A stretch of 64,000 nt of DNA from Eledone cirrhosa. Taxonomy: Eukaryota. The notes under the pieces were generated by a model that saw only the letters and a program-made list of their open reading frames with translations, was not told the DNA's origin and did not search any database. The stretch is taken from contig OZ024742.1 in the NCBI GenBank assembly GCA_964016885.1, forward strand, positions 58,280,001-58,344,000. The letters run 5' to 3'. Of this stretch, positions 3,523-51,700 are shown in pieces; positions within the stretch are counted from its first letter, which is position 1, and each line of letters begins with the position of its first letter. The position numbers and the translations under genes are program-made.

Positions 3523-6500
3523 ATCATCATCATCATTTTACGTCCGTTCTTCCACGCTAGCATGGGTTAGACGGGTTGTCCTGTTGTGGGCAGTGTCTGG
3601 TTGGCTGACCATGCCTTGCTCATACAGGAACTGATTTGGCTTGATTTCTACAGCTGGATGCCCTTCCTAACACCAACCTCATTTACAGTGAGTGCTGGGT
3701 GCTTTTTCGTGGCGCCTACACATCCACTTTACAGTGTGGGCTGGGTGCTTTTTTGCCGTGGCTACTTCCACGACCACCTTGCAGTGAGAGGGTGTGGGGG
3801 CATATTGTCTATATGCTTCAGCTTGTACCCATGGGAGGTCGGGTACTCTGTATTACTGCATCACGGTCGTATGTCATCGCCTTTGAGAGGTGTAATTGGG
3901 TAAGGTCGGCTTTTATCACCTCATCCCAGGTCATCTTCGGTCTCCCCACTCCGCGGTTTCCATCGACTTCTAGTGCTCTGCACCTTTTTATGCAGCTGTC
4001 ATCCTTCATACGCATCACATGTCCATACCAACGCAACTGCCTCTCCTGCACACAGCATTTGATTCCTCTTATGCTCAGTCTCTCTCTCAATTCATTTATG
4101 CTTTGTCGTTCACGTATATTACTGTTACACATCCATCGGAGCATGCAGGCTTCGTTTCTCTCTAATCTACGTGAGTCTTCTACCTTCAGCGCCCAGGTCT
4201 CACTACCATTTAACATTGCTGTTCGGATACACGCATCAGTCTGCCTTTCATTTTGAGGGAGAAGCCTTTTGCAGCTAGCAGTGGTAGTAGTTCCTTAAAC
4301 TTCTTCCATCCCGTTCTTACCCTAGTTATTGTACTTTCTGAACACCCACCTCCGCTGCTAATTCGGTCACCTAGGTAGCAGAGGCTGTCTACTGTCTCTA
4401 CAGAGCCCTCCCAGAGATTGGTGGTACTTGTTTCCTGTGGCTGTTTGCTGCTTGCTGTCCCAGTAAAGCTGCTGCATTGAAGCCTACATTCTTAATTAAG
4501 CTTCCTGAGATCCCGCTACATCTCTTGTGTACCCATTGTTTGCATTTGGGGCAGAGAATGGAGTTCCTACCTACACCTTTCCTACATACTGAGCAAGGCC
4601 ATTTCTCTGAGGGGATCTGGGTTCTGTTTTCTCGTCTACTTACAAGGACCTTAGTCTTTGTCATGTTGACTTTGAGACCCTTTCTTTCTAGTCTCTGCTT
4701 CCAAGTTTGGAATTTCTTCTCTAGTTCTACCATAGATTCAGCTATAAGTGTGAGGTCATCAGCATACAGGAGTTCCCATGGTCATCCGGTCTTAAACTTC
4801 TCCGTTATTACCTGCAGGACTATGATGAACAGGAGAGGGCTAAGAACAGAGCCCTGGTGGACCCCAACCTGTACGCTAAATTCCTCGCTATACTCATTGC
4901 TAATCCTAACTTTGCTGACTGCTCCCCTATACATGGCTTGTACAGCTTTCACAAGCCATTCATCTACTCCTAGTTTTCTAAGAGCCCACCAGATTGCAGC
5001 ACGTGGAACTCTGTCAAAGGCTTTCTCGAGATCGACGAATGACAGGTAGAGTGGCTTACTTTTAGCTAGGTACTTTTCCTGTAACTGCCTCACAAGGAAG
5101 AGGGCATCAGTGGTGCCTCTTCCTGGTACAAACCCAAATTGCATCTCATCTAGTTTCACCCGGTCCCTAATCAACTGTGCTATAACTCTTTCTGTTATTT
5201 TCATGACCTGTTCCATCAGCTTTATACCTCTATAGTTTCCTCTATCGAGTGCATCACCTTTACGTTTGTAGCAGTTGAAATGATGCTACTGCACTAATCT
5301 TTTGGTATGACACCTAGTATTACCTGGTTAACAATGCATGTGGTTATAGTGTGACCTACAGACCCAGATGCCTTCAGCATCTCGGCAGCTATACCCGATG
5401 GACCGGTTGCCTTCCCCATCTTCATATCTTTGATTGCCTTACTTACTACGCTGCTGCTGACTTGTACTGCTGGCCCCTCTATAGGGCCTACTTGGGGTAG
5501 GGTCTCTTCTTCCCATGCATTCTCCTCATTTAGTCATCTATCATAATGACTCTTCCATGCATCTTTCTTCTCAGCACTTGTGAGGGCAAGCTCACCTTTA
5601 TCATTCCGGATACACTTCTCTCCAATGACATCACAATTCTCTCTGACACACTGCCTCGTAATCTTGAATACATCCTGTTTCTGGTCCTCACGTTGCAAAA
5701 ACATGCTTGCATTTTCTATCCTCTGCTTCCCTCCTACCTAAGTATACTTGTCGCCTAGCTTCCCTCTTGGTCTCTATGTAATGTACCCTGCTCCCCCCGT
5801 TCTTCCATTCTTTCCATGCCTGTCTCTTGGCCTTAACTGCTTCATCTACCTTATTGTTCCACCACTAAGTCACTCTCCTCCTGCTTGTGGTCTTACTCCA
5901 GCCACAGACCTCATCTGTCGCCTCTAGTAAGTTATTTTTTAGGAACTCCCAGTGCTCTTCTACATTGAATGTCTATCTGTTCTTCTTTACTTTCGTAGGC
6001 GTTGAGTAAAATATCTTTAAATCTGTTACTGGCTGAGGGGTCTTTCAGCTTCCAGATCTTTCTTCTCCAGGTTGGCCTGTTTCCAGGTTCGTCTAGTTCT
6101 GACTGTGAGGTCGCTGACAACTAAGCTATGTTGGGAGGTACATTCCTCACTAGGGAAGGTTTTTGTGTTTACGACCGTCCATCTGTCACGTCCTCTGATA
6201 AGGATAAAATCTATCTGACTAGAATGCTCCCCTGATCTATAGGTGATCAGCTGGTTGTCAGGTTTTTTGAAGTTTGTGTTACATATCGACAAGTCATTGG
6301 CGTCGCAAAATTCTAGAAGTCTGAATCCTTCTTCCTTTCTTGTGCCAACCCCATGGCCTCCATGGACTCTATTGAAGCTGTCACAGTGTTTGCTTACGTG
6401 TCCGTTAAAATCTCCTGCGATGATTAGGAAGTCATTGTCGTTTGTTAGAGCAGTACTGTGCATTAGGGACTCGTAAAATCTATCCTTAAGTTCATCTGGC

Positions 6501-16090: not shown

Positions 16091-16683
16091 AAGTAAGTTA
16101 ATTTAAAAAAAAAAATTTTTTTTTATTTTCTTATTTTACGTCTTTTATATTATTGTTCTGCATCCTCCTGCATTGAACCACCTAGGTACTATGACATAAC
16201 CTGTGTATTTGCTGGCATTAGCGTACATCTGTACGCTTATGTTAGTAGATATATTAAATTATCTATATCTCCAAATCACTGATTTGTCGAGCAAACCTGC
16301 CAAAACCACTTCTAAATTTTTTGGGGGTGTTAGTAGGCGTCTGTCATCTTACCATCCCATTCCTACTGACTAGCCTCTGTGTCACGTGATTGATTCTTTA
16401 GAATCGGCCATATGACCAGTAGCAGTGAGAATTTTCAGTACCTGGAATCCAGTCCTCGATAGCTGTTCCATTTACCGAATTATTATTATTTTTATATGAG
16501 TCCCCAGTGTCCGCGCATTGCCTGGAGACTTGGCTGAGAATGATCTCCCTGATGACGCAATGAAATTCTCAACAGTTCATTACGTAACTGTCTTTATCCC
16601 ATTGCAGAAACTAATTAGTTGGAGTGAAAAATTAAGTAAGTTAATTTAAAAAAAAATTTTTTTTTTAATTTTCTTATTTTACG

Positions 16684-39682: not shown

Positions 39683-39780
39683 TGTACTTTCACTACTGTA
39701 TGTGTGTGTGTTCGCTATATATGTGTGTGTGTTTGTGTATATATGTATATATATATATATATATATATACATATATATAT

Positions 39781-40943
39781 GAGAGACGTAAAATAAGAAA
39801 ATTATAAAATTAACTTACTTAAATTTCACTCCCAACTAATTAGTTTCTGAAAGGGATTAAACGTACTATCCGAAGAGAGCACGGAGAAGCCTTTCGTCAT
39901 CAGGGAAGTCTATTCTCAGCTAAGTTTCCAGGCAATACGTGAACACAGGGAACTTATACAAAAATAATTCAGTGGATGGAAAAAGCAAAGCGAGGACTAA
40001 TTCCAAGCCATTGATAAAATCACTGCCTACTGTGTCGGTGGCAAATTCAAAAGAATCAATCACGTGACATCGAAGTCAATCAGTGGATAGTGGTTTGTTA
40101 GTAAGACAGCAGCCGTACTGTTACCATAGCAGCAGTTTTGGAGATAATTATAAAGAATTAGTATATCTAGTAACATATATATACACAGATGCATACTTAT
40201 GTTAGCAAATATATAGGTTTTGTCTTAGTAACTATGTGGTTCAATGCATGGGGTTGCAGAACAATAATATGAGAGACGTAAAATAAGAAAATTATAAAAT
40301 TAACTTACTTACTTAAATTTCACTCCCAACTAATTAGTTTCTGAAAGGGATTAAACGTACTATCCGAAGAGAGCACGGAGAAGCCTTTCGTCATCAGGGA
40401 AGTCTATTCTCAGCTAAGTTTCCAGGCAAAACGTGGACACAGGGAACTTATACAAAAATATTTGTCGAGCAAAAATGGCCAAAACTGCTGCTATGGTAAC
40501 AGTACGGCTGCTGTCTTACTAACAAACCACTATCTACTGATTGATTCTTTTGAATTTGCCACCGACGCAGTAGGCAGTGGTTTTATCAATGGCTTGGAAT
40601 TAGTCCTCGCTTTGCTTTTTCCATCCACTGAATTATTTTTGTATAAGTTCCCTGTGTCCACGTATTGCCTGGAAACTTAGCTGAGAATAGACTTCCCTGA
40701 TGATGAAAGGCTTCTCCGTGCTCTCTTCGGATAGTACGTTTAATCCCTTTCAGAAACTAATTAGTTGGGAGTGAAATTTAAGTAAGTAAGTTAATTTTAT
40801 AATTTTCTTATTTTACGTCTCTCATATTATTGTTCTGCAACCCCGTGCATTGAACCACATAGTTACTAAGACAAAACCTATATATTTGCTAACATAAGTA
40901 TGCATCTGTGTATATATATGTTACTAGATATACTAATTCTTTA
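39781..40943. mobile_element. Retrozyme-like HHR element: ~1.4 tandem units on minus (494-bp period) joined to an inverted plus-strand unit
   Basis: HHRs at 39828-39909(-), 40322-40403(-) and 40691-40772(+); junction ~40460; TA flanks. Confidence 0.88.
40691..40772 (+). ncRNA. Type I hammerhead ribozyme (mirror copies at 39828-39909 and 40322-40403)
   Basis: acttcc-CUGAUGA-tgaaagg[..]cctttca-GAAA-ctaattag-UU-gggagt. Confidence 0.88.
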
Positions 40944-40960
40944 TATATATATATATATAT

Positions 40961-43286
40961 AAGACCACAAGCAGGAGGAGAGTGACTTGGTGGTGGAACA
41001 ATAAGGTAGATGAGGCAGTTAAGGCCAAGAGACAGGCATGGAAAGAATTGAAGAATGGGGGAACAGGGTACATTACATAGAGACCAAGAGGGAAGCTAGG
41101 TGACAAGTATACTTAGCAGAGGACAGAAAATTCAAGCATGTTTTGCAACGAGAGGACCAGAAACAGGAGGTGTTCAAGATTGCGAGGCAGTGTCAGAGAG
41201 AATTGTGATGTCATTGGAGAGAAGTGTATCCGGAATGATAAAGGTGAGCTTGCCCTCACAAGTGCTGAGAAGAAAGATACATGGAAGAGTCATTATGATA
41301 GATTACTAAATGAGGAGAATGCATGGGAAGAAGAGACCCTACCCCAAGTAGACCCTATAGAGGGGCCAGCAGTTCAAGTCAGCAGCAGCATAGTAAGTAA
41401 GGCAATCAAAGATATGAAGATGGGGAAGGCAACTGGTCCATCGGGTATAGCTGCCGAGATGCTGAAGGCATCTGGGTCTGTAGGTCACACTATAACCACA
41501 CGTATTGTTAACCAGGTAATACTAGAAGGTGTCATACCAAACGATTGGTGCAGTAGCATCATTGTCAACTGCTACAAAGGTAAAGGTGATGCACTCGATA
41601 GAGGAAACTATAGAGGTATAAAGCTGATGGACCAGGTCATGAAAGTAACAGAAAGAGTTATAGCACAGTTGATTAGGGACCGGGTGAAACTAGATGAAAT
41701 GCAATTTGGGTTTGTACCAGGAAGAGGCACCACTGATGCGCTCTTCCTTGTGAGGCAGTTACAGGAAAAAAACCTAGCTAAAAGTAAGCCACTCTACCTG
41801 GCATTCGTCGATCTCAAGAAAGCCTTTGACAGAGTTCCACGTACTGTAATCTGGTGGGCTCTTAGAAAACTAGGAGTAGATGAATGGCTTGTGAAAGCTG
41901 TACAAGCCATGTATAGGGGAGCAGTCAACAAAGTTAGGATTAGCGAGGAATTTAGCGTACAGGTTGGTGTCCACCAGGGCTCTGTTCTTAGCCCTCTCCT
42001 GTTCATCATAGTCCTGCAGGCAATAACGGAGGAGTTTAAGACCAGATGCCCATGGGAACTCCTGTATGCTGATGACCTCGCACTTATAGCTGAATCTATG
42101 GTAGAACTAGAGAAGAAATTCCAAATTTGGAAGCAGGGACTAGAAAGAAAGGGTCTCAAAGTCAACATGACAAAGACTAAGGTCCTTGTAAGTAGACGAG
42201 AAAACAGAACCCAGATCCCCTCAGGGAAATGGCCTTGCTCAGTATGTAGGAAAGGTGTAGGTAGGAACTCCATTCTCTGCCCCAAATGCAAACAATGGGT
42301 ACACAAGAGATGTAGCGGGATCTCAGGAAGCTTAATTAAGAATGTAGGCTTCACATGCAGCAGCTGTACTGGGACAGCAAACAGCAAACAACCACAGGAA
42401 ACAAGTACCACCAATCTCTGGGAGGGCTCTGTAGAGACAGTAGACAGCTTCTGCTACCTAGGTGACCGAATTAGCAGCGGAGATGGGTGTTCAGAAAGTA
42501 CAATAACTAGGGTAAGAACGGGATGGAAGAAGTTCAGGGAACTACTGCCACTGCTAGCTGCAAAAGGCTTCTCCCTCAAAATGAAAGGCAGACTGTATGA
42601 TGCATGTATCCGAACAGCAATGTTACATGGTAGTGAGACCTGGGCACTGAAGGTGGAAGACTTACGTAGATTAGAGAGAAACGAAGCCTGCATGCTCTGA
42701 TGGATGTGTAATAGTAATATACGCGACCGACAAAGCATAAATGAATTGAGAGAGAGACTGAGCATAAGAGGAATCAAATGCTGTGTGCAGGAGAGGCGGT
42801 TGCGTTGGTATGGACATGTGATGCGTATGAAGGATGACAGCTGCATAAAAAGGTGCAGAGCATAGAAGTCGATGGAAACCGCGGAGTGGGGAGACCTAAG
42901 ATGACCTGGGATGAGGTGATAAAAGCCGACCTTACCCAATTACACCTCTCAAAGGCGATGACACATGACCGTGACCTCTGGCGTCACGCAGTAATACAGA
43001 GTACCCGACCTCCCATGGGTACAAGCTGAAGCATATAGACAATATGCCCCGACACCCTCCCACTGCAAGGTGGTCGTGCAGGTGCCACGGCAAAAAAGCA
43101 CCCAGCACTCACTGTAAATGAGGTTGGTGTTAGGAAGGGCATCCAGCTGTAGAAATCAAGCCAAATCAGTTCCTGTATGAGCAAGGCATGGTCAGCCGAC
43201 CAGACACTGCCCACAACAGGACAACCCGTCTAACTCATGCTAGTGTGGAAGAACGGACGTAAAACGGTGATGATGATGATGATGAT
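40961..43286 (+). mobile_element. RTE family A, 5'-truncated
   Basis: 520-aa RT-PHD ORF 41138-42700; family A 3' UTR with (GAT)n. Confidence 0.95.
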
Positions 43287-48708: not shown

Positions 48709-51700
48709 ATGAATCTGCGAGCTACCAAGCACCCACGTGAAGCGCCAACCCAGAGACCCTCCCCTACGAGTGTCGACAAATGCCCAAAACTCCGAGTTGG
48801 TACCATCAATGTAGGCTCAATGAAAGGAAGAGCAGGAGAAATCGTAGAAATGCTAGAGCGAAAGGAAGTTGATGTATGCTGTGTGCAAGAGACTAGATGG
48901 AGAGGAGGGTCTGCTAGAGTCCTTGTAGGAAAAAGCCAGTGCTACAAATTTTTCTGGGTGGGAAATGACGATGGGATGGGTGGTGTAGGTATACTATTAG
49001 CTGACAAGTGGGTAGATAAAGTAATCTCAGTGTACAGGGTAAATGCAAGAATCATTAAACTCAGACTAGTCCTGAATAAGACAATTACCACAATAATATC
49101 AGCTTACGCACCCCAATCGGGGCTGCCAGACGAACTTAAGGATAGGTTTTACGAGTCCCTAATACACACTACTGCTCTAACAGACGACAAGGACTTCCTA
49201 ATCATTGCAGGAGATTTTAACGGACACGTAGGTAAACACTGCGACGGCTTCAATAGAGTACATGGAGGCCATGGAGTTGGCACAAGGAATGAGGAAGGAT
49301 TCAGACTTCTAGAATTCTGCGACGCCAATGACATGTCGATATGTAACACAAACTTTAAAAAACCCGACAACCACCTGATCACCTATAGATCAGGGGAGCA
49401 CTCTAGTCAGTTAGATTTTATCCTCATCAGAGGACGTGACAGATGGACGGTCGTAAACACAAAAGCCTTCCCTAGTGAGGAATGTACATCCCAACATAGC
49501 TTAGTTGTCAGCGACCTCACGGTCAGAACTAGACGAGCCCTGAAACAGAGGCCAACCTGGAGAAGAAAGATCTGGAAGCTGAAAGTCCCCTCAACCAGTA
49601 ACAGATTTAAAGATATTTTACTCAACGCCTACGACAGTAAAGAAGAACAGATAGAGACATTTAACGTAGAAGAGAACTGGGAGTTCCTAAAAAATAACTT
49701 ACTAGAGGCGACGGATGAGGTTTGTGGCTGGAGTAAGACCTCAAGCAGGAGGAGAGTGACTTGGTGGTGGAACAATAAGGTAGATGAAGCAGTCAAGGCC
49801 AAGAGACAGGCATGGAAAGAATGGAAGAACGGGGGGAGCAGGGTACATTACATAGAGACCAAGAGGGAAGCTAGGCGACAAGTATACTTAGCTAGGAGGG
49901 AAGCAGAGGATAGAAAATTCAAGCATGTTTTACAACGTGAGGACCAGAAACAGGAGGTATTCAAGATTGCGAGGCAGTGTGTCAGAGATAGTTGTGATGT
50001 CATTGGAGAGAAGTGTATCCGGAATGATAAAGGTGAGCTTGCCCTCACAAGTGCTGAGAAGAAAGATGCATGGAAGAGTCATTATGATAGATTACTAAAT
50101 GAGGAGAATGCATGGGAAGAAGAGACCCTACCCCACGTAGACCCTATAGAGGGACCAGCAGTACAAGTCAGCGGCAGCGTAGTAAGTAAGGCAATCAGAG
50201 ATATGAAGATAGGGAAGGCAACCGGTCCATCGGGTATAGCTGCCGAGATGCTGAAGGCATCTGGGTCTGTAGGTCACACTATAACCACACGTATCGTTAA
50301 CCAGGTAATACTAGAGGGGGCCATACCAAAAGATTGGTGCAGTAGCATCATTGTCAACTGCTACAAAGGTAAAGGCGATGCACTAGATAGAGGAAACTAT
50401 AGAGGTATAAAGTTGATGGACCAGGTCATGAAAGTAACAGAAAGAGTTATAGCACAGCTGATTAGGGACCGGGTGAATATAGACGAGATGCAATTTGGGT
50501 TTGTTCCAGGGAAAGGCACCACTGATGCGCTCTTCCTTGTGAGGCAATTACAGGAAAAGTACCTAGCTAAAAGTAAGCCACTCTACTTGGCATTTGTCGA
50601 CCTTGAGAAAGCCTTTGACAGAGTTCCACGTGCAGTAATCTGGTGGGCTCTTAGAAAACTAGGAGTAGATGAATGGCTTGTGAAAGCGGTACAAGCCATG
50701 TATAGGGGAGCAGTCAGCAAAGTTAGGATTGGCAATGAGTATAGCGAGGAATTTAGCGTACAGGTTGGGGTCCACCAGGGCTCTGTTCTTAGCCCTCTCC
50801 TGTTCATCACAGTCCTGCAGGCAATAACGGAGGAGTTTAAGACCGGATGCCCATGGGAACTCCTGTATGCTGATGACCTCGCACTCATAGCTGAATCTAT
50901 GGTAGAACTAGAGAATAAATTCCAAACCTGGAAGCAGGGACTAGAGAGAAAGGGCCTCAAAGTCAACATGACAAAGACTAAGGTCCTTATAAGTAGACGA
51001 GAAAACAGAACCCAGATCCCCTCAGGGAAATGGCCTTGCTCAGTATGTAGGAAAGGTGTAGGTAGGAACTCCATTCTTTGCCCCAAATGCAAACAATGGG
51101 TACACAAGAGATGTAGCGGGATCTCAGGAAGCTTAATTAAGAATGTAGGATTCACATGCAGCAGCTGTGCTGAAACAGCAAGCAAACAGCCACAGGAAAC
51201 AAGTACCACCAATCTCTGGGAGGGCCCTGTAGAAACAGTAGACAGCTTCTGCTACCTAGGTGACCGAATTAGCAACGGAGGTGGGTGCTCAGAAAGTACA
51301 ATAACTAGGGTAAGAACGGGATGGAAGAAGTTTAGGGAACTACTACCACTGCTAGCTGCAAAAGGCTTCTCCCTCAGAATGAAAGGCAGACTGTATGATG
51401 CGTGTATCCGAACAGCGATGTTGCATGGTAGTGAGACCTGGGCGCTGAAGGTGGAAGACTTACGTAGATTAGAGAGAAACGAAGCCTGCATGCTCCGATG
51501 GATGTGTAACAGTAATATACGTGAACGACAAAGCATAAATGAATTGAGAGAGAGACTGAGCATAAGAGGAATCAAATGCTGCGTGCAGGAGAGGCGGTTA
51601 CGCTGGTATGGACATGTGATGCGTATGAAGGATGACAGCTGCATAAAAAGGTGCAGAGCACTAGAAGTTGATGGAAACCGCGGAGTGGGGAGACCCAAGA

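What the first reader, a model, noticed from the sequence alone, without database searches (positions are those of the whole stretch)
39781..40943. Tandem plus inverted retrozyme array with three hammerheads
Two minus-strand HHRs 494 nt apart define an excisable monomer, and their palindromic stem III loops could pair into the dimeric active form. A third HHR sits in the inverted arm. This locus alone could generate a ~494-nt linear or circular RNA and long dsRNA. Position 10.1.11.1 is C.A in two copies and U-A in the third, rather than the usual G-C.
Basis: partly seen in the sequence, partly recalled or inferred. Interest (0 to 1): 0.75.

Follow-up and report, generated by a model that had tools for sequence, protein, structure and literature searches.

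The report
Two-start-site hammerhead retrozyme insertion
This is one of thousands of copies of a non-coding repeat that carries a predicted self-cutting RNA fold, and its mirror-image insertions end at two fixed points, one per arm, which likely records a Penelope-type jumping-gene enzyme copying the RNA from both broken DNA ends at once.

Summary
Observation confirmed: two minus-strand type I hammerheads 494 nt apart, and a third in an inverted arm. The locus is not special. It is one young copy of a dispersed family of ~521-nt units (10,291 hammerhead-pattern hits). The 494-nt length is a private 27-nt deletion. C·A at 10.1/11.1 is the family norm (183 of 190); the U-A is a recent CpG transition. 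The tandem-plus-inverted layout is the known Penelope-like (PLE) insertion footprint. What the tests add is a strict rule: in all 65 two-arm insertions whose ends both fall on fixed sites, one arm ends 61 nt and the other ~179 nt past the cut site. The arms come from one lineage, and in 14 of 33 neither could be a fold-back copy of the other. Best reading: a borrowed PLE enzyme primes from both cut strands of a (TA)n target at two sites around a structured 118-nt tail, probably on a circular or multimeric RNA. Cleavage, expression and the partner PLE are not shown. Monomer release and long dsRNA are predicted to compete. The scan found this pattern before, on other DNA.

The parts
39716..39780 (.). 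(TA)n-rich left flank into which the left arm's 3' end runs
   Evidence: sequence
39777..40463 (-). Left arm, 687 nt: unit positions 386-521, 1-521 (27-nt deletion) and 1-61; ends at the 'near' fixed site
39828..39909 (-). Type I hammerhead fold 1 (C10.1.A11.1, GUU triplet; predicted cut after 39834)
39834..40327 (-). Predicted 494-nt monomer between the two minus-strand cut sites (family unit 521 nt minus a private 27-nt deletion near 40140)
40322..40403 (-). Type I hammerhead fold 2 (C.A; predicted cut after 40328)
40453..40463 (.). Head-to-head junction of the two arms; 11-nt overlap with one mismatch (imperfect microhomology)
40453..40945 (+). Right arm, 493 nt: unit positions 188-521 (private 20-nt deletion near 40540) and 1-179; ends at the 'far' fixed site
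40691..40772 (+). Type I hammerhead fold 3 (U10.1-A11.1 from a C>T change at CpG, 40704; predicted cut after 40766)
40828..40945 (+). 118-nt 'tail' between the near and far end sites. It holds a short hairpin (about 40832-40855, nearly invariant) and a long hairpin (about 40881-40932) with compensatory and G.U changes
40942..40961 (.). (TA)n right flank into which the right arm's 3' end runs
   Evidence: sequence

Best explanation
This is a dispersed copy of a non-coding ~521-nt hammerhead repeat (a non-LTR retrozyme) that was likely written into a (TA)n tract by a borrowed Penelope-like reverse transcriptase/endonuclease, which would have primed from both cut DNA strands at two fixed RNA sites, one per arm. 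SHOWN by sequence: the unit, its covarying hammerhead fold, the two fixed 3' ends 118 nt apart, their one-of-each use in inverted insertions, variable 5' ends joined head to head, arms longer than one unit, and (TA)n flanks. INFERRED: the family RNA is cut by its hammerhead and circularised, or stays a uniform multimer. A PLE protein, probably a dimer, binds the structured tail and nicks both strands of (TA)n. One 3' end primes at the near site (unit 57-61) and the other at the far site (175-179), using 4-nt AUAU/UAUA microhomology. Both cDNAs run upstream, often past one lap, stop at variable points and are joined by short-homology end joining. This locus is probably a product of that process; whether it is itself transcribed is untested.
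For: Copy number: 247 exact and 10,291 pattern hits. Ends: 102 of 107 outer ends in 69 subfamily-A loci fall at one of two sites, and 33 of 33 two-arm insertions with both ends at fixed sites are near+far. An independent set of other subfamilies gave 32 of 32. 101 of 109 3' flanks are TA-rich, as are 19 of 31 5' flanks of one-arm copies. 24 of 66 arms exceed one unit. Both arms carry the same subfamily stem II in 12 of 12 elements where both have a hammerhead, and sub-lineage markers occur in every unit of a locus in 22 of 24 cases. In 14 of 33 loci, this one included, neither arm is contained in the other, which excludes simple fold-back copying there. Structure: 97.3% of cells paired, 11 of 43 pairs with two-sided changes, 0 of 500 shuffles reach the covariation score; G.U changes in the tail hairpin fit the hammerhead-sense strand. 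Protein-coding PLE families in the same genome have the same two-end layout, with tails of about 94 and 171 nt between my end motifs, and 2 of 2 inverted pairs seen are near+far. Literature: tandem/inverted units with a one-sided tail (PMC8557442, PMC3846280); two internal RT start sites define the tail, both strands are cut and extended, and a dimer is predicted (PMC11167929); retrozymes derive from PLE pLTRs (10.64898/2026.07.22.740005).
Against: No autonomous partner was found: no similarity to the unit or its tail in the pLTRs of 50 GIY-YIG loci or in the scanned 3' segments of two divergent PLE families. Cleavage is untested; a conserved alternative fold pairs the core with loop III and is 2.5-4.2 kcal/mol more stable. 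In print, 8 of 9 predicted Xenopus retrozyme dimers did not cleave in vitro, and for the anole PLE the uncut RNA was the main substrate and no strand bias in start site was seen. A circle is not distinguished from a uniform multimer or from jumps between monomers. 15 of 107 insertions with two arms across both sets (5 of 38 and 10 of 42) have at least one end at neither site; I read them as truncated or rearranged and left them out of the 65. Covariation counts come from 17 related sequences of about 6 subfamilies, so the shuffle control is not a probability.
Confidence: 0.8

Rival explanations
1. One reading: this locus is itself an active source of a 494-nt linear or circular RNA, cut by a dimeric hammerhead, and of long dsRNA.
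For: The two minus-strand hammerheads are intact and identical to the family norm, and their palindromes pair in the predicted fold of the left arm alone. The locus belongs to the youngest lineage (1.5% from the lineage consensus). Retrozyme repeats in coral, mussel and axolotl are expressed as circles (PMC7229834).
Against: The 27-nt deletion that makes 494 nt occurs at no other of 69 loci except the duplicate of this region, so this monomer has left no offspring in the sample. Only 136 nt of unit lie upstream of the first cut site. A read-through transcript is predicted to pair the outer hammerhead with the inverted arm.
Confidence: 0.15
2. The copies are 5'-truncated end pieces (solo or tandem pLTRs) of an autonomous PLE that I did not find, not an independently replicating retrozyme.
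For: The insertion anatomy is the same as for protein-coding PLEs. Only 150 of 10,597 GIY-YIG candidates were scored and 50 loci were examined.
Against: Arms run through up to about 4 head-to-tail units with no other sequence. No PLE ORF is joined to the unit in any of the 94 loci tested by tblastn; the few hits are separate neighbours. The unit has diversified into at least 6 subfamilies as a whole circular permutation.
Confidence: 0.12
3. The inverted arm arises by fold-back self-priming of one cDNA or of an antisense template, as proposed for rotifer Penelopes (PMC3846280), or by L1-type twin priming that tiles one linear RNA.
For: 19 of 33 two-arm loci are geometrically compatible with one arm being a copy of the other. 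A few junctions are near-palindromic (L045, L186), and a few far arms stop where the near arm starts (L081, L211).
Against: In 14 of 33 loci, including this one, neither arm is contained in the other. The arms overlap in unit coordinates instead of tiling. Tail-hairpin G.U changes favour the hammerhead-sense strand as the structured RNA.
Confidence: 0.08
4. The tandem and inverted layout formed after insertion, by DNA-level unequal crossing over or repair, as in satellite birth (favoured for multimers in 10.64898/2026.07.22.740005).
For: Units within a locus are more alike (2.5-2.8% divergence) than units between loci (4.9%), which conversion could also give.
Against: DNA recombination has no reason to place one end at unit 61 and the other at 179 in 65 of 65 cases, each running into (TA)n.
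Confidence: 0.05

Closest known systems
Metazoan non-LTR retrozymes (Cervera and de la Pena 2020, PMC7229834: abstract, outline, Discussion and search passages read; Li, Clavereau and Pollet 2026, 10.64898/2026.07.22.740005: parts 1-3 of 5 read)
   Same: Non-coding, low-GC tandem unit with one type I hammerhead per unit; thousands of dispersed monomers and short multimers; palindromic loop III; a mismatch at the base of stem II is known (U.U in axolotl HHR_Amex2); PLEs are the proposed mobilisers.
   Different: The unit is 521-560 nt against ~170-400 nt in Cervera, though within the 51-972 bp range of Li. Stem II is oversized (49 nt, with an inner hairpin), with conserved C.A and a GUU triplet. 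Inverted two-arm insertions with fixed ends are not described in these papers: 'inverted' occurs 0 times in Cervera's main text and once, in a reference title, in Li, where 'tail' does not occur. Expression and cleavage are shown there and untested here.
Insertions of endonuclease-positive Penelope-like elements (Craig et al. 2021, PMC8557442, and Arkhipova et al. 2013, PMC3846280: search passages read)
   Same: Partial tandems, adjacent inverted 5'-truncated copy, a tail at one end only, (TA)n targets, hammerhead in the terminal repeat.
   Different: No RT or endonuclease ORF. The tail is 118 nt against 30-40 bp. In the passages read the tail is 'optional' or 'often only at one end'; here it is on exactly one arm in 65 of 65 cases.
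Anole Poseidon PLE in vitro (Frangieh et al. 2024, PMC11167929: parts 1-2 of 4 read)
   Same: Two internal RT start sites define the tail; both DNA strands are cut and extended; AT-rich target; protein predicted to be a dimer.
   Different: That study saw no start-site difference between strands and no homology between target and start site. Here the two arms use different sites, and both sites share 4 nt with (TA)n.
Minimal and variant PLE hammerheads (Cervera and de la Pena 2014, PMC4209133: parts 1-2 of 4 read; Perreault et al. 2011, PMC3088659: search passages)
   Same: Long stem II, extra nucleotide after A9, palindromic stem/loop III proposed to act as a dimer; pairs of hammerheads 100-700 bp apart on opposite strands were already noted.
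   Different: Here the extra C is matched by an extra A before G12, giving a C.A opposition above a conserved G-C. Loop III is a 6-nt palindrome.

Membership tests
Type I hammerhead ribozyme | Core CUGANGA, GAAA and NUH with stems I, II and III, stem I open | tested here: met
   covariation in stems I and II
Type I hammerhead ribozyme | Canonical G10.1-C11.1 pair next to the core | tested here: not met
   C.A in 183 of 190, U-A in 6, G.A in 1; an invariant G-C follows one step out. Mismatches here are known in natural variants (PMC3088659, PMC7229834)
Type I hammerhead ribozyme | Self-cleavage at the NUH site | not testable with these tools
   Only folding energies; Rfam gave no match at gathering thresholds
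Non-LTR retrozyme | Head-to-tail non-coding units with one hammerhead each, GC below 45% | tested here: met
   36% GC, longest ATG ORF 44 aa; tandem units
Non-LTR retrozyme | Many dispersed copies | tested here: met
   247 exact and 10,291 pattern hits, controls 0
Non-LTR retrozyme | Expressed as linear and circular monomer RNA | not testable with these tools
   No RNA run was available for this stretch
PLE-type insertion | Partial tandem plus adjacent inverted 5'-truncated copy | tested here: met
   38 of 69 and 42 of 66 insertions have two head-to-head arms
PLE-type insertion | Fixed 3' ends with a tail on one side | tested here: met
   65 of 65 near+far; tail 118 nt rather than 30-40
PLE-type insertion | AT-rich or (TA)n target | tested here: met
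   101 of 109 3' flanks and 19 of 31 5' flanks TA-rich
PLE-type insertion | Target-site duplication | tested here: inconclusive
   Cannot be read in (TA)n flanks
Autonomous EN+ PLE | RT plus GIY-YIG ORF inside the element | tested here: not met
Non-autonomous partner of a named PLE family | Shared pLTR or tail sequence with a protein-coding PLE | tested here: inconclusive
   None found in 50 GIY-YIG loci or two divergent PLE families; the sample is small against more than 10,000 candidates

The most novel reading that the evidence does not exclude
The 65-of-65 near+far rule is a genomic record of an asymmetric PLE dimer. It sits on the structured tail of one circular retrozyme RNA and starts two rolling-circle cDNAs at once, one from each cut target strand at its own start site, with telomerase-like repeat stuttering at initiation: (CT)5-14 at far ends where the template has only two CT units. 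This would explain the PLE tail, the head-to-head inversion and retrozyme tandems in one mechanism.
Probability: 0.4. Interest if true: 0.7.

Novelty: new variant of a known kind. Interest (0 to 1): 0.45.

Why it matters
How PLEs make tandem/inverted insertions with a one-sided tail is called undefined in PMC8557442, and PLE mobilisation of retrozymes is proposed but not shown in PMC7229834 and the 2026 preprint. This family carries the full PLE insertion footprint with no coding sequence, and it yields a sharp rule: one arm per start site, both from one RNA lineage. That turns the open question into an in vitro test with a 521-nt RNA and a (TA)n target. The locus itself is an ordinary copy.

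Tried and rejected
Rfam scan of the window: 0 hits at gathering thresholds. Sequencing runs: no RNA holder listed; three runs of unknown kind from one sample hold up to 0.40 of the words. Laying two of them gave only short repeat-family contigs, which say nothing about this locus. Partner search: GIY-YIG family search (150 of 10,597 candidates scored; 50 loci examined); a short-stem-II pattern (38 hits, nearly all deletion variants of this family by their matched sequence); a near-end motif pattern (30 loci; 25 were family copies, the other 5 showed no link to a PLE); two divergent PLE families (60 loci; no nhmmer hit at E<5 in the 3' segments scanned, which for one family and part of the other stopped at an internal TA run before the terminal repeat; alignment of one tail no better than shuffles, 0.89). 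A-to-G editing scars: no clear strand bias (singletons A>G 22 vs T>C 20 and 20 vs 32; multi-locus variants 7 vs 2 and 12 vs 13). Run-off at the hammerhead cut: 0 of 107 5' ends lie within 5 nt of the cut in set A. Ends are enriched 6-35 nt downstream in set A (19 observed vs 6.5 expected, window chosen after looking), but this replicated only weakly in set B (11 vs 6.5, p 0.07), so I do not rely on it. Locus-private variants shared between units were few (12 of 163 between laps, 16 of 193 between arms) and do not decide circle versus multimer. The short ORF starting in the hammerhead core is not conserved across subfamilies. No structure or complex prediction was run; there is no protein in the element.

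Full report
1. Observation. The element lies at 39777-40945 between two (TA)n tracts. The left arm reads on the minus strand from 40463 to 39777 and holds two hammerhead folds whose predicted cut sites (after 40328 and 39834) are 494 nt apart. The right arm reads on the plus strand from 40453 to 40945 with a third fold (cut after 40766). The arms are 98% complementary over 320 nt. Each fold has the type I core CUGAUGA...GAAAC-UAAUUA-GUU, a 6-bp stem I, a 49-nt stem II region with an inner hairpin, and a palindromic loop III. Rfam found nothing at its thresholds.

2. It is one copy of a large family. The window lies at G000:C3:58280001-58344000 in a 3.0-Gb animal genome. A 29-nt piece of the hammerhead has 247 exact hits and a looser pattern 10,291, with reversed controls at 0. 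The unit is 521 nt in this subfamily and 522-559 nt in at least five others. The 494-nt length comes from a 27-nt deletion between short direct repeats; the right arm has its own 20-nt deletion. Neither occurs at any other of 69 loci. A 99%-identical duplicate of at least 9.7 kb on contig C7 (segmental duplication or second haplotype; not resolved) has C at 10.1 in all three folds, so the window's U is a later C>T change at a CpG. Across 190 hammerhead sequences from the fetched loci, a count that includes overlapping loci only once by context, 10.1/11.1 is C.A in 183, U-A in 6 and G.A in 1.

3. The fold is under selection. In 17 units from about six subfamilies, 97.3% of cells pair and 11 of 43 pairs change on both sides; 0 of 500 shuffles reach the covariation score and slid controls fall to 26-47% paired. 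The sequences are related and part of the structure came from their consensus fold, so these are not probabilities. Two-sided changes lie in stem I, stem II, the inner hairpin and a long hairpin just upstream of unit position 179, whose one-sided changes are G.U type and so fit the hammerhead-sense strand. A conserved alternative pairing of the core with loop III is 2.5-4.2 kcal/mol more stable than the active monomer fold. In a transcript of the whole element the outer hammerhead is locked in the long duplex.

4. The ends follow a strict rule. Set A is all 68 loci among the first 100 listed exact hits, plus this locus. 102 of 107 outer ends fall at unit 57-65 ('near') or 174-181 ('far'). Of 38 two-arm insertions, 33 have both ends at fixed sites and all 33 are near+far; 5 have one end elsewhere. 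One-arm copies are 21 near and 10 far. Set B is 63 loci from the first 100 listed pattern hits (7 overlapping duplicates dropped, 3 shared with set A and 3 others not fetched), giving 66 elements. Of 42 two-arm elements, 32 are near+far, none near+near or far+far, and 10 have an end elsewhere. Under independent 50:50 choice, 65 of 65 has probability about 3e-20 (my arithmetic). 3' flanks are TA-rich in 101 of 109 cases, and so are 19 of 31 5' flanks of one-arm copies, so (TA)n is a real target. Both sites share 4 nt with (TA)n.

5. Both arms come from one RNA lineage. Where both arms carry a hammerhead, they share the subfamily stem II in 12 of 12 elements, including a rare deletion variant; in the young lineage, multi-locus markers are present in every unit of a locus in 22 of 24 cases. 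Over all set A markers, discordance is 12% between arms and 15% between laps against 83% between loci. 24 of 66 arms are longer than one unit, and one runs about four units, so the template was a circle, a uniform multimer, or monomers with jumps; my data do not separate these. In 14 of 33 loci, including this one, neither arm is contained in the other, which excludes fold-back copying there. Where the template has two CT units at the far site, 6 of 6 terminal copies found have 5-14 units while 6 of 6 internal copies have 2. This suggests stuttering at initiation, but the sample is small and priming in a (GA)n tract is an alternative.

6. Mechanism. Inferred: a PLE RT/GIY-YIG protein, probably a dimer, binds the structured 118-nt tail, nicks both strands of (TA)n, and primes one cDNA at each site; the two 5'-truncated cDNAs are joined head to head. 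Support from print: PLE insertions are partial tandems with an inverted copy and a 30-40-bp tail often at one end only (PMC8557442, passages; PMC3846280, passages). The anole PLE cuts and extends both strands from two internal sites that define the tail, and is predicted to be a dimer (PMC11167929, parts 1-2 of 4); that study saw no strand difference in start site and found uncut RNA to be the main substrate. Protein-coding PLEs are abundant in this genome. Two divergent families, which I read as Hydra-type from their motifs (no Pfam hit; clade description), also end at two fixed sites, about 94 and 171 nt apart, and 2 of 2 inverted pairs seen are near+far (three copies scored 'near' there are in fact cut by the locus edge). 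None shares detectable sequence with this family, so the partner is unnamed.

7. Relation to what is known. By anatomy it is a non-LTR retrozyme (PMC7229834, abstract, Discussion and passages; preprint 10.64898/2026.07.22.740005, parts 1-3 of 5), with cleavage and circular RNA untested. Palindromic loop III, long stem II, a mismatch at the base of stem II and opposite-strand hammerhead pairs are all in print (PMC4209133, parts 1-2 of 4; PMC3088659, passages). Six literature searches (listings only, apart from the papers named) turned up no statement of a strict one-site-per-arm rule or of PLE tails on retrozymes; subscription journals and all supplements were not seen. Earlier AI notes of this scan report the same two-armed pattern in other families of this and other genomes. 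I had found the rule before reading them, and they are not independent support.

8. Verdict. The locus is an ordinary young insertion of an abundant retrozyme family. Its value is as one instance of a family-wide end rule that makes the PLE insertion mechanism testable. Interest 0.45; new variant of a known kind.

Noticed in passing
window:16090-16693 (+): A one-arm copy of another subfamily of the same retrozyme (about 75% identical, hammerhead at 16549), ending at the near site in (TA)n and starting at the GTAAGT motif just after a cut site.
   Followed up: partly
window:52183 (-) and 52347 (+): A short head-to-head inverted pair of another hammerhead-bearing family (core CUGAGGA, TATATA loop III), like a PLE terminal stub.
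   Followed up: no
window:56354 (-) and 60869 (+): Two identical hammerhead folds of a third family in opposite orientation 4.5 kb apart; could be the two ends of one inverted PLE insertion.
   Followed up: no
window:40961-42700 (+): A 5'-truncated LINE fragment begins right after the right (TA)n; its 527-aa frame hits RVT_1 and PHD. Other copies lie at about 5439-5894 and 49735-50189.
   Followed up: partly
L091 (G000:C7:71736500-71746400): At least 9.7 kb around the element is duplicated at 99% identity on contig C7; segmental duplication or uncollapsed haplotype not resolved.
   Followed up: partly
unit positions 14-25 (window:40780-40791): A GTAAGT(AAGT) motif like a 5' splice site is conserved in all subfamilies just after the cut site; 8 of 102 set A 5' ends fall at positions 16-19 but only 1 of 92 in set B.
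   Followed up: partly
L159, L161, L177, L180, L204, L206: (CT)5-14 runs at far ends where internal copies have two CT units; possible telomerase-like stuttering by the RT.
   Followed up: partly
L126:6700 and 7159; L135:8068 and 8579: Tandem hammerheads of other families, 459 and 511 nt apart, with U.U at the base of stem II; several more retrozyme families exist in this genome.
   Followed up: no
L305-L334 and L275-L304: Two very abundant protein-coding PLE families with long-stem-II hammerheads and tails of about 171 and 94 nt, much longer than the 30-40 bp in print; no Pfam hit for their proteins.
   Followed up: partly
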